Origin: Eledone cirrhosa | Taxonomy: Eukaryota | Direction: 5' to 3' | NCBI GenBank assembly: GCA_964016885.1 | Contig: OZ024759.1 | Span: 25,296,001 to 25,360,000, forward strand | Length of the DNA stretch: 64,000 nt | In this document: piece by piece, positions 40,609 to 60,842 of the stretch | Layout of the letters: each line of letters opens with the position of its first letter | Position numbering within the stretch: the stretch's first letter is position 1 | Position numbers and translations under genes: made by a program | Notes under the pieces: model-generated | Told to the model about the DNA's origin: nothing | Seen by the model: only the letters and a program-made list of their open reading frames with translations | Databases searched by the model: none

Positions 40609-40901
40609 TCATGTTGAATCATGACCAAATTTTGTAGCCAGTTCCTTCACTCTTCCAGTTTGTATAAGAGTCCTCCATTTATCTTTTAAATTAACATTAC
40701 TGCGGTAAGTGTCAATGTCGTTGCGGATAAGGGCCCACTTCCCAATCCCGATCCTCTTCACACTGAGATAAAACTCCTCCTCCTCCTCTTCTGACCACAT
40801 CGTCCGATAGTTTCTACTTTTGCTTTGCTTCGCTGCAGGTGCTCTGTACTTCAAACTGTTTCTCTTTTGGATGGTCGGTAAAACTGGATATCTTTCATTA
40901 A
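40609..40901 (-). CDS. TERF: TRF terminal exon with telobox Myb domain
   Basis: [44 protein letters not shown] has the three-Trp Myb pattern with the TRF telobox. ttctttacttgtag acceptor, TGA at 40611-40609. Confidence 0.93.
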
Positions 40902-43900
40902 CTACAAGTAAAGAATAATAATAGTAATAATAATAATAATGATGATTTCATTTATTGGCAACATGGGCCGACATGTTGGGGACAATACAAAGACAGGGTC
41001 AGTGGGGGTTTACAATAAGCTCGAGTAAAAGTGTACAATGGCTAAACCAATTTAACAATGAAAATATAAAAAAATATAAAATAAACTATGCATAAATTCC
41101 ATGATTTGGGGGGGGGGGGCGGGGCGACCCAGGAGTGACTCAGGTACTCCACCAATCCTGAACCACCCTGCGCATCTAGGGCACTCGGGGAGTCCGTTCC
41201 TATAGACAAGAATGTATCTATAAAAACATTTGAAAAATTGAGCAAATATAAAGACCTGGAGATAGAGATTGGAAAAATGTGGAAGTTTAGAACTAAAACA
41301 ATACCAGTGGTTGTAGGTGTTCTAGGAATGATACTAATCCCAAATCTGAGGAAACCCGCGTATAGAAGAAATACAAAAGATAGTACTAATGGAAACTGCC
41401 AATAAACTAGGAAGATTCTGTGAATATAAATACAGAGAGAGAGAGAGTGAGAGAGAGAGCGAGCTAGAGAGAGAGAGAGAGGAGAGAGAGAGAGAAAGAA
41501 GAGAGAGAGAGAGAGAAAGAGAGAGAGAGAGAGGGAGAGAGAGAGAGAGAGAGAAGAGAGAGAGAGAGAGAGAGAGAGAGAGAGAGAGAGAGAAAGAGAG
41601 AGAGAAGAGAGAGAGAGAGAGAGAGAGAGAAAGAGAGAGAGAGAGAGAGAGAGAGAGAGAAAGAGAGAGAGGAGAGAGAGAAGAGAGAGAGCTAGAGAGA
41701 GAGAGAGCTAGGAGAGAGAGAGAAGAGAGAGAGAAAGAGAGGAGAGAAAGAGAGAGAGAAGAGAGAGAGCTAAGAGCGAGAGAGAGAAGAAGAGAGAAGA
41801 GAGAGAGAGAGAAGAGAGAGAGAGAGAGAAAGAGAAAGAGAGAGAGAGAGAGAAGAGAGAGAGAGAGAGAGGGAAAGAGAGAGAGAGAGAGAGAGGAGAG
41901 AGAGAAGAGAGAGAGAGAGGAGAGAGAGGGAAAGAGAGAGAGAGAGAGAGAGAGGGAAAGAGAGAGAGAGAGAGAGGGGGAAAGAGAGAGAGAGGGGAAA
42001 GAGAGAGAGAGAGAGAGAGGGAAAGAGAGAGAAAAGAAAGAGAGAGAGAGAGAGAGGGAAAGAGAGAAAAAGAAGAGAAAGAGAGAGAGAGAGAAAGAGG
42101 GAAAGAGAGAAAGAGAAAGAGGAAAGAGAGAGAGAAAGAGAGCTAGAGAGAGAGAAAGAGAGCTAGAGAGAGAGCTAGAGAGAGAGAGCTAGAGAGCTAG
42201 AGAGAGAGAGCTAGAGAGCTAGAGAGAGAGAGCTAGAGAGCTAGAGAGAGAGAGAGAGAGAGAGCGAGAGAGAGAGAGAGAGAGAGCGAGAGAGAGAGCG
42301 AGAGGAGAGAGAGAGAGCGAGAGAGAGAGCGAGCGAGAGAGAGGCTAGTGAGAGAGAGAAAGAGAGAGAGCTAGAGAGAGAGAGAGAGGAGAGCTAGAGA
42401 GAGAGAGAGAGAGCTAGAGAGCTAGAGAGAGAGCTAGAGAGAGAGAGAAAGAGAGAGAGAGCTAGAGAGTTAGAGAGAGCTAGAGAGTTAGAGAGAGCTA
42501 GAGAGCTAGAGAGTTAGAGAGCTAGAGAGTTAGAGAGTTAGAGAGCTAGAGAGTTAGAGAGAGAGAGAGCTAGAGAGTTAGAGAGAGAGAGAGCTAGAGA
42601 GTTAGAGAGAGAGCTAGAGAGTTAGAGAGAGAGCTAGAGAGTTAGAGAGAGAGAGAGCTAGAGAGTTAGAGAGAGAGAGAGCTAGAGAGTTAGAGAGAGA
42701 GAGAGAGAGAGTTAGAGAGAGAGAGAGAGAGAGCTAGAGAGTTAGAGAGAGCTAGAGAGTTAGAGAGAGCTAGAGAGCTAGAGAGCTAGAGAGTTAGAGT
42801 GAGAGAGCTGGAACAAATATCCAATGTACACAACCACCCTGCCATATTGATGGCCATTTTAATAAGAAAAAGAAATTAAACCAAAATATATCCAACTTAC
42901 TTGGGGACACCAGATCGTTAAATCTATCCTGAAAACACCTGAAATATAGAGACACACAAAAAAATATATATTATTTCTTTTTATTTGCCACAACAAAAAG
43001 GGGCACAATACAATAGACAAGGACAGAGGGGGAGGGGGGTACACTGAAATCAAAAAGAAAGAAATTAACAAACAAATAACAATGAACAAAAGAATTCTAA
43101 CAACAATGAAAATTCACCAATAGTGGGGAGGAAGACCACCCAGGGGTGATTTAGTGAACTGGGTGCTTTTCGTCATGCCACCAACAATACTACCAGATTA
43201 CAAGGTGATTTGGGTGCTTTTTGATGTAGTACCAGCACTACCACACTACAGGGTGGACTGGGTGCTATTTGATGTGGCAACATCACTACCACACTACAGG
43301 GTGGACTGGGTGCTTTTTTATGTAGCACCATCACTACCACATTACAGGTTGCACTAGGTGCTTTTTGATGTGGCACCAGCACTACCATATGGCAGAGTAG
43401 ACTGTGTGATTTTTATCGTGGCACCATCACTACAACATTACAGGGTGGACTGAATGCTTTTTGATGTGGCACCAGCATTACCATTTTACAGAATTGGCTC
43501 AGTACATTTTATCGTTATACCAGTGCCTACCTCATTACAACACTAGGGTGCCCAGTGTCCTTGGTTAGGCTGGGAGGGACATTGGCAGTGTGAGAGTTGA
43601 GGGTGTTTAAATGAGAGATACTGGCTATGTGGCTCTAGTGAAAAGGAAGCACAATACAGACATCCCTTTCCAGCACAGTATCTCTCCATTCACTGCATTT
43701 CTTTGTAGTGAGTGAAGAGATACTGTGCTGAAAAGGATCCGTCCAACCCATGCAAGCATAAAAAAACAGATTTAAAAACAACGATGATGATGATCATGAT
43801 AGTAAGCCCACTAAAATTGCCCAAATTATGACTAGTTAAACAAGACGTACCTTTTCTTTGCAGTTAATTTACGGTCAGTATTTTTCTGTTTTGGAGATGG

Positions 43901-60782: not shown

Positions 60783-60842
60783 AACTGGACTACACTTAAG
60801 TGGACTACCTATAACAATAATCTGTTACCCCGTATATATATA

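What the first reader, a model, noticed from the sequence alone, without database searches (positions are those of the whole stretch)
40609..60808. Full TRFH + telobox-Myb telomere-binding factor (shelterin TRF) gene hidden in repeat-filled introns
Seen: twelve short exons with canonical splice sites and matching phases join into a 452-aa ORF, most of which the ORF track misses. Knowledge: an N-terminal TRFH dimerisation domain plus a C-terminal single Myb with the (V)xLKDKWRT telobox defines TRF1/TRF2/Taz1. Inference: a mollusc (probably octopus) co-orthologue of vertebrate TERF1/TERF2. The TRFH is divergent enough that automated annotation might call only the Myb exon.
Basis: partly seen in the sequence, partly recalled or inferred. 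Interest (0 to 1): 0.85.

Follow-up and report, generated by a model that had tools for sequence, protein, structure and literature searches.

The report
Cephalopod telomere-binding TRF gene, start corrected
This is a cephalopod's gene for the protein that likely coats chromosome ends (the counterpart of human TRF1/TRF2), an expected gene whose sequence has drifted unusually far and whose true first exon lies outside the window.

Summary
Exons 2-12 (minus strand, 59347 to 40609) have GT/AG ends and matching phases and end in a telobox Myb domain. The true exon 1 is 12 kb further on, outside the window (G000:C20:25368794-25368665), giving 467 aa instead of 452. Argonaut and cuttlefish-like orthologues carry the same N-terminal domain and Myb in one chain. 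Predicted models of two orthologues match the human TRF2 and TRF1 TRFH structures best (Z 15.7 and 11.2), and a mollusc-only profile hits them at E 5e-34. One public run holds a contig spliced exactly at exon 6/7. No second telobox Myb was found, and 4 of 20 contig-end stretches are (CCCTAA)n. A single TRFH+Myb TRF in invertebrates, molluscs included, is published (PMC8653790); its TRF list holds no cephalopod. The modest novelty is divergence: coleoid TRFH escapes Pfam, sits on a long branch and lacks the loop that carries the human F142/F162 docking residue. DNA binding and dimerisation were not shown.

The parts
59348..64000 (-). Window part of intron 1 (13,317 bp in all). The true exon 1 (130 nt, ATG in a GCCACAATGG context, GT donor, phase 1; TRFH helix 1) lies beyond the window at G000:C20:25368794-25368665 (72794-72665 in window numbering)
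60400..60830 (.).
   Evidence: 3330 candidates, 40 scored, 92-97% identity; 2.5 bits
59130..59347 (-). Exon 2 (218 nt), TRFH
58049..58129 (-). Exon 3 (81 nt), TRFH
57766..57906 (-). Exon 4 (141 nt), TRFH
56000..56070 (-). Exon 5 (71 nt), end of TRFH
47881..48010 (-). Exon 6 (130 nt), helical segment after TRFH conserved among coleoids
   Evidence: spliced to exon 7 in run X4 record 15
47126..47186 (-). Exon 7 (61 nt), end of that helix
45561..45612 (-). Exon 8 (52 nt), hinge
   Evidence: splice sites and phase; 26 unlisted letters of X4 record 15 fit by length
44719..44750 (-). Exon 9 (32 nt), hinge; the weakest exon
   Evidence: splice sites and phase only
43851..44007 (-). Exon 10 (157 nt), Ser/Pro-rich hinge
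   Evidence: X4 record 9 covers 43923-43849 and then leaves the stretch
42901..42938 (-). Exon 11 (38 nt)
   Evidence: restores phase 2 to phase 1; aligns to Argonauta; X4 bin depth 4.3 = 18.7 x 40/174
40609..40901 (-). Exon 12 coding part (293 nt with stop): basic pre-Myb stretch and telobox Myb domain
   Evidence: PF00249 30.5 bits, over its cut-off; best solved-structure hits zebrafish Terfa, E 5e-8
52958..54716 (-). Non-LTR retrotransposon fragment in intron 5 (reverse transcriptase domain), not part of the gene product
   Evidence: RVT_1 E 9e-31

Best explanation
This is a 12-exon, 32-kb minus-strand gene whose 467-aa product has an N-terminal domain predicted to fold as a TRFH domain and a C-terminal telobox Myb, and it is likely the single shelterin TRF of a coleoid cephalopod. 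By the known family mechanism (inferred, not tested here) two chains pair through TRFH (about aa 1-195), the two Myb domains (about aa 404-460) clamp double-stranded TTAGGG repeats at chromosome ends through the KDKWR helix, and the roughly 200-aa hinge and TRFH recruit TIN2 and so TPP1-POT1 to hide the ends from DNA repair and to control telomerase.
For: Exon chain with GT/AG ends and no stop. Orthologues with both domains in one chain: P0003 (Argonauta hians) aligns over aa 3-458, E 1e-82; P0002 over aa 5-271 and 368-463. A profile of 8 non-cephalopod mollusc N-termini scores the corrected N-terminus 50.3 bits; best of 500 shuffles (455 reported) 9.8. One mollusc homologue, Lottia XP_009059053 (P0103), is on the published TRF list. 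Mollusc-only profile A4 hits human TRF2 TRFH at E 5e-34 and TRF1 TRFH at 2e-25 over positions 6-208. Models of two orthologues rank TRF2 then TRF1 TRFH first among 48,161 chains: P0002 Z 15.7, rmsd 4.5, 195 aligned; P0003 Z 11.2, rmsd 5.3, 190 aligned; the next rows are Tbf1 and Poz1. Only 1 of 17 Myb matches in the genome has KD[KR]W; it scores 86.9 bits against 22.1 for the next. P0002 finds 3 matches, all at this locus. 4 of 20 contig-end stretches are (CCCTAA)n. POT1 and TINF2_N each have one hit over the cut-off. X4 record 15 skips intron 6 exactly.
Against: The window's own spliced protein was not folded or scanned against Pfam; only orthologues at 32-33% TRFH identity were. No Pfam TRF hit for 5 N-terminal window peptides, true exon 1 or 4 coleoid orthologues. 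A cephalopod-only profile reaches human TRFH only at E 0.005-0.1. The P0003 Z of 11.2 is within the range the tool calls common for helical bundles, and both folds used alignments of TRF homologues (A1 held a fish TRF). No single contig was shown to run from a TRFH exon to the Myb exon; that link is by length only. X4's kind is not on record, it is one study, and it also holds an unspliced piece across the exon 8 acceptor and an intronic piece.
Confidence: 0.93

Rival explanations
1. The gene is the TRF orthologue by descent but has left the telomere, or works there with a changed set of partners, like interstitial telobox factors such as Tbf1.
For: Long coleoid stem branch (1.82 changes per column); loss of the helix 3-4 loop and, in the window protein and Argonauta, of the proline that PMC8653790 calls TRF2-like; no acidic iDDR-like patch (4 D/E against 17 K/R in the 60 aa before the Myb).
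Against: Telomeres are TTAGGG, no other telobox Myb was found, KDKWR is intact and the Myb is 51-59% identical among coleoids. TRF1/TRF2 structures outrank Tbf1. Lack of the iDDR is already reported for molluscs.
Confidence: 0.05
2. The TRFH exons and the Myb exon belong to separate transcripts, or the reader's repeat-derived exon 1 is a real alternative start.
For: No single record was seen to span both domains; the exon 1/2 junction was not in the stretch laid.
Confidence: 0.02

Closest known systems
Single invertebrate TRF (Myler et al. 2021, PMC8653790; e.g. Lottia XP_009059053, Mytilus TERF1 CAC5386852)
   Same: TRFH plus C-terminal Myb with K-D-K-W-R; one copy per genome; long hinge; no acidic iDDR-like region, as the paper reports for molluscs.
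   Different: About 20% identity over TRFH. The loop between helices 3 and 4 is about 7 residues shorter and lacks the DG-x6-Y motif seen in 10 of 13 non-cephalopod molluscs and the [TS]xLE motif seen in 11 of 13. No cephalopod is on the paper's TRF list.
Human TRF2 (TERF2; PDB 3bu8, 9q9m) and TRF1 (TERF1; PDB 9hcl, 8ox1)
   Same: Best structural matches for the orthologue models; same domain order; telobox Myb.
   Different: No basic or acidic N-terminal extension (TRFH starts at about residue 8); no counterpart of the F142/F162 loop; Ser in place of the TRF2-type proline; no detectable Rap1-binding motif (weak tests).
Coleoid orthologues: Argonauta hians GAB1607677.1 (P0003), Sepia pharaonis CAE1157308.1 (P0161), unnamed P0002 and P0157
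   Same: One clade, support 100; share the short loop and a W-x6-Y-x6-FE helix after TRFH.
   Different: Databases call them uncharacterised or unnamed. P0003 has an 11-aa tandem repeat in the hinge; the P0161 model lacks the Myb.
Fungal Tbf1 and Poz1 (PDB 6k5s, 8x6e, 5xxe)
   Same: TRFH-like fold, Z 8.8-10.9.
   Different: Ranked below TRF1/TRF2 in both searches, 6-11% identity. Taz1 was not seen in any result.

Membership tests
Metazoan TRF (TRF1/TRF2 family) | Single C-terminal Myb domain with K-D-R/K-W/Y-R in helix 3 | tested here: met
   definition from PMC8653790 section 5
Metazoan TRF (TRF1/TRF2 family) | N-terminal TRFH domain, by sequence | tested here: met
   Transitive: window to non-cephalopod mollusc profile 50.3 bits; mollusc profile to human TRFH E 5e-34. 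Direct Pfam PF08558 hits were not obtained for coleoid proteins.
Metazoan TRF (TRF1/TRF2 family) | TRFH fold | tested here: met
   On orthologues only: P0002 Z 15.7, P0003 Z 11.2, TRF2 TRFH first in both. The window's own spliced protein was not folded.
Metazoan TRF (TRF1/TRF2 family) | TRFH and Myb in one polypeptide | tested here: met
   Open chain and orthologues with both; RNA support direct for exon 6/7 only, by length for exons 2-8 and 10-12
Metazoan TRF (TRF1/TRF2 family) | Homodimerisation through TRFH | tested here: inconclusive
   see Tried and rejected
Metazoan TRF (TRF1/TRF2 family) | Binds ds(TTAGGG)n and sits at telomeres | not testable with these tools
   The substrate exists in the genome; binding needs EMSA or imaging
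Invertebrate single TRF, co-orthologous to TERF1 and TERF2 | One TRF gene per genome | tested here: met
   genome searches score only the best candidates, so this is a lower bound
Invertebrate single TRF, co-orthologous to TERF1 and TERF2 | Branches before the vertebrate TRF1/TRF2 duplication | tested here: inconclusive
   Quick tree with one vertebrate only, midpoint root
TRF2-like features (PMC8653790) | Acidic iDDR-like patch before the Myb | tested here: not met
   4 D/E, 17 K/R, no Trp in 60 aa; the paper reports the same lack for molluscs
TRF2-like features (PMC8653790) | [quoted passage not shown] | tested here: not met
   Ser in the window protein and P0003, Thr in P0157, Pro in P0002 and P0161; I took the paper's arrow to mean the P of TRF2's EPYLL, as the figure itself is not held
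TRF2-like features (PMC8653790) | Long hinge between TRFH and Myb | tested here: met
   About 208 aa (196-403 of 467)

The most novel reading that the evidence does not exclude
Coleoid cephalopods have a rewired shelterin. Their TRF lost the TRFH loop that in humans docks F/Y-x-L-x-P partners (most other molluscs keep a tyrosine at that column) and carries a coleoid-conserved two-helix element after TRFH that serves as a replacement docking site, the result of a burst of TRF evolution on the coleoid stem.
Probability: 0.2. Interest if true: 0.55.

Novelty: new member of a known kind. Interest (0 to 1): 0.27.

Why it matters
Mostly it fills an annotation gap. It names the double-strand telomere factor of cephalopods, which databases list as uncharacterised and Pfam sees only as a Myb, and it gives a corrected gene model for work on telomeres and ageing in these animals. 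The shortened docking loop offers a natural test of whether the TRFH peptide-docking site is needed for end protection outside vertebrates. It does not change the known picture of shelterin evolution.

Tried and rejected
Word-index protein searches were nearly blind: the Myb exon found nothing among longer proteins, P0003 1-280 found only itself, and alignment A1 found 8 proteins, so no closer octopus protein was available to fold. PF08558 against the genome: no match, and the control rang nowhere, so it is uninformative. Myb_Rap1 against the genome: no match, also uninformative. Run search: no RNA holder listed; X4 turned out to hold a spliced contig only when laid. Homodimer prediction for P0003 1-205: no answer, score 0.00, alignment not used; no evidence either way. 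The idea that the helices after TRFH are a Rap1-binding motif like TRF2's: no relevant solved-structure hit with exon 6 alone or a 7-row profile, and the coleoid segment profile found no convincing non-coleoid match; not supported, weak tests. Profile A2 (E 4e-39 to TRF2 TRFH) held one fish TRF (P0071), so it was repeated with molluscs only and cephalopods only. The careful tree did not finish; the quick tree is quoted. Earlier scan findings: none. Paper searches for a cephalopod TRF listed none that describes it, judged from listings; the library lacks most subscription papers.

Full report
Observation. A six-frame scan finds one telobox motif in the window, on the minus strand near 40689. 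The exon holding it matches Pfam Myb over the cut-off, and its best solved relatives are zebrafish Terfa Myb domains (E 5e-8), with human TRF2 and TRF1 and plant telomere-binding proteins further down. Reading upstream I found ten more segments with AG and GT ends, including a 38-nt exon at 42938-42901 needed to restore phase.

Homologues. A search of 1.84 billion representatives with the Myb exon gave 348 hits, 150 listed. Among those 150, the translation of exons 2-7 matched P0003 (E 2e-37) and P0002 (E 1e-25), then weaker hits. P0003 is an Argonauta hians protein named 'uncharacterized'; others are bivalve and gastropod proteins, several named TERF1- or TRF2-like. These proteins begin with a conserved W-x-x-[DE]-[YF] helix for which tblastn found no convincing match in the window (output partly cut).

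Correcting exon 1. The first 70 residues of P0003 hit the genome once, 8.7 kb beyond the window's end (E 4.5e-9, 47% identity). There an ATG in a good context opens 130 nt ending in a phase-1 GT donor that fits exon 2. The corrected frame is 467 aa over 32,186 bp with 11 GT-AG introns.

Is the N-terminus a TRFH? Pfam TRF is not hit by window exons, by the true exon 1 or by four coleoid orthologues; of 34 homologues scanned, 2 hit it. The link is transitive. The corrected N-terminus scores 50.3 bits on a profile of 8 non-cephalopod molluscs, the best of 500 shuffles 9.8. A 17-row mollusc profile hits human TRF2 and TRF1 TRFH at E 5e-34 and 2e-25; a cephalopod-only profile reaches only 0.005-0.1. 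AlphaFold models of P0002 and P0003 are all-helical over residues 1-200. Foldseek lists human TRF1/TRF2 TRFH entries in its top 47 ranks (E 4e-4 to 0.015), and the wide structural search puts TRF2 then TRF1 first for both models (Z 15.7 and 13.2; 11.2 and 10.6), followed by Tbf1 and Poz1. Limits: these are orthologues at about 33% identity, folded with TRF alignments, and the second Z is modest for a helical bundle.

Expression. No run on record as RNA was listed. I laid 2 of the 4 listed runs on 42850-48050. In X4, one 724-nt contig lies on 47125-47186 and continues at once on 47881-48010, skipping intron 6 exactly. Its other 506 and 26 letters are not shown but fit exons 5 to 2 (511 nt) and the start of exon 8 by length. 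A 663-nt contig covers the end of exon 10 and runs on for 530 letters, which fits exon 11, exon 12 and 201 nt of 3' UTR; the depth in the exon 11 bin (4.3) equals 18.7 x 40/174. X4 also has an unspliced piece across the exon 8 acceptor and an intronic piece, its kind is not on record, and it is one study. This is direct support for one junction and indirect support for most others; the exon 1/2 junction and exon 9 were not tested.

Genome context. The Myb query hits only this place; P0002 gives 3 matches of 10 candidates, all here; of 17 Myb-family matches only this one has KD[KR]W. Of 20 contig-end stretches fetched (19 starts, 1 end), 4 are (CCCTAA)n arrays. POT1 and TINF2_N have one hit each over the cut-off. 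So the likely substrate and at least two partner families are present.

Mechanism. Shown: gene structure, domain order, telobox motif, TTAGGG telomeres, apparent single copy. Predicted: TRFH fold. Inferred from the family (recalled, and as set out in PMC8653790): dimerisation through TRFH, binding of duplex TTAGGG by two Myb domains, recruitment of TIN2-TPP1-POT1, end protection.

Comparison with what is known. Myler et al. 2021 (PMC8653790; I read the abstract, section 5, search passages, and part 1 of 3 plus search rows of the supplementary PDF; figures are not held) found one TRF gene in each of 16 invertebrates, placed the TRF1/TRF2 duplication in vertebrates, and noted that molluscs lack the iDDR-like acidic patch. 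The window protein lacks it too. Their list includes Lottia XP_009059053, which is my P0103, and no cephalopod. PMC7227075 (search passages only) notes that cephalopod TERB1 seems to lack its Myb.

What is different. In a quick tree the window protein, Argonauta, Sepia and P0002 form a clade (support 100) on a 1.82-long stem. In the profile alignment human F142 (TRF1) and F162 (TRF2) fall on a column that is Tyr in 10 of 13 non-cephalopod molluscs. All 4 coleoid rows and the window protein have that loop about 7 residues shorter, without the Gly, the Tyr or the [TS]xLE motif. Two snails and one bivalve also depart, and the paper regards the F162 site as vertebrate-only, so the functional meaning is uncertain. 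A helical segment after TRFH is conserved among coleoids (22-30% identity) and has no match among solved structures.

Verdict. A real gene and an expected family member. Observation partly confirmed (11 of 12 exons), interpretation supported, novelty low. Interest 0.27.

Noticed in passing
G000:C20:25371556-25377877 (75556-81877 in window numbering; L003): A 6.3-kb minisatellite of about 430 15-base units with TTAGGA/TTAGGG cores starts 2.8 kb upstream of the TRF start codon, with an inverted block of about 1 kb inside. An exact 39-base pattern has 108 matches in the genome; the 100 listed lie in only three arrays (this one, C1:212.60 Mb, C1:295.22 Mb). It holds no AGGGTT on the strand counted, so TRF binding is doubtful; the position may be chance.
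   Followed up: partly
G000:C20:25369096-25369768 (73096-73768 in window numbering; L002): An imperfect inverted repeat of about 670 bp (86% self-match) begins 300 bp upstream of the ATG, in the likely promoter region.
   Followed up: no
G000 C1-C4: Four giant contigs (443, 416, 379, 379 Mb) stand beside many of 35-135 Mb, which suggests chromosome fusions or scaffolding joins.
   Followed up: no
window 52958-54716 (-): Non-LTR retrotransposon fragment in intron 5 with a reverse transcriptase domain and a PHD-like match inside the same frame; similar fragments at 49520-50230, 51730-52080, 6119-6574 and 12325-13395.
   Followed up: partly
window 41430-42810: A 1.4-kb GA-rich simple repeat in intron 11, beside a short piece at about 41200-41420 that by eye resembles the endonuclease end of a non-LTR element (recalled likeness, not tested).
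   Followed up: no
window 38937-39317 (+) and 9310-10152 (+): Frames that look like a mariner-type transposase fragment and a Penelope-like (GIY-YIG) fragment (recalled likeness, not scanned).
   Followed up: no
window 23415-24257 (+): A 281-codon non-repetitive open frame, possibly an exon of a neighbouring gene on the plus strand.
   Followed up: no
L058 (G000:C21:12015244-12015387) and L059 (G000:C1:228056306-228056500): Candidate POT1 and TIN2 exons of this genome.
   Followed up: no
P0069, P0123, P0106: Homologues that appear to carry two TRFH-like domains in tandem before one Myb; their sources were not looked up.
   Followed up: no
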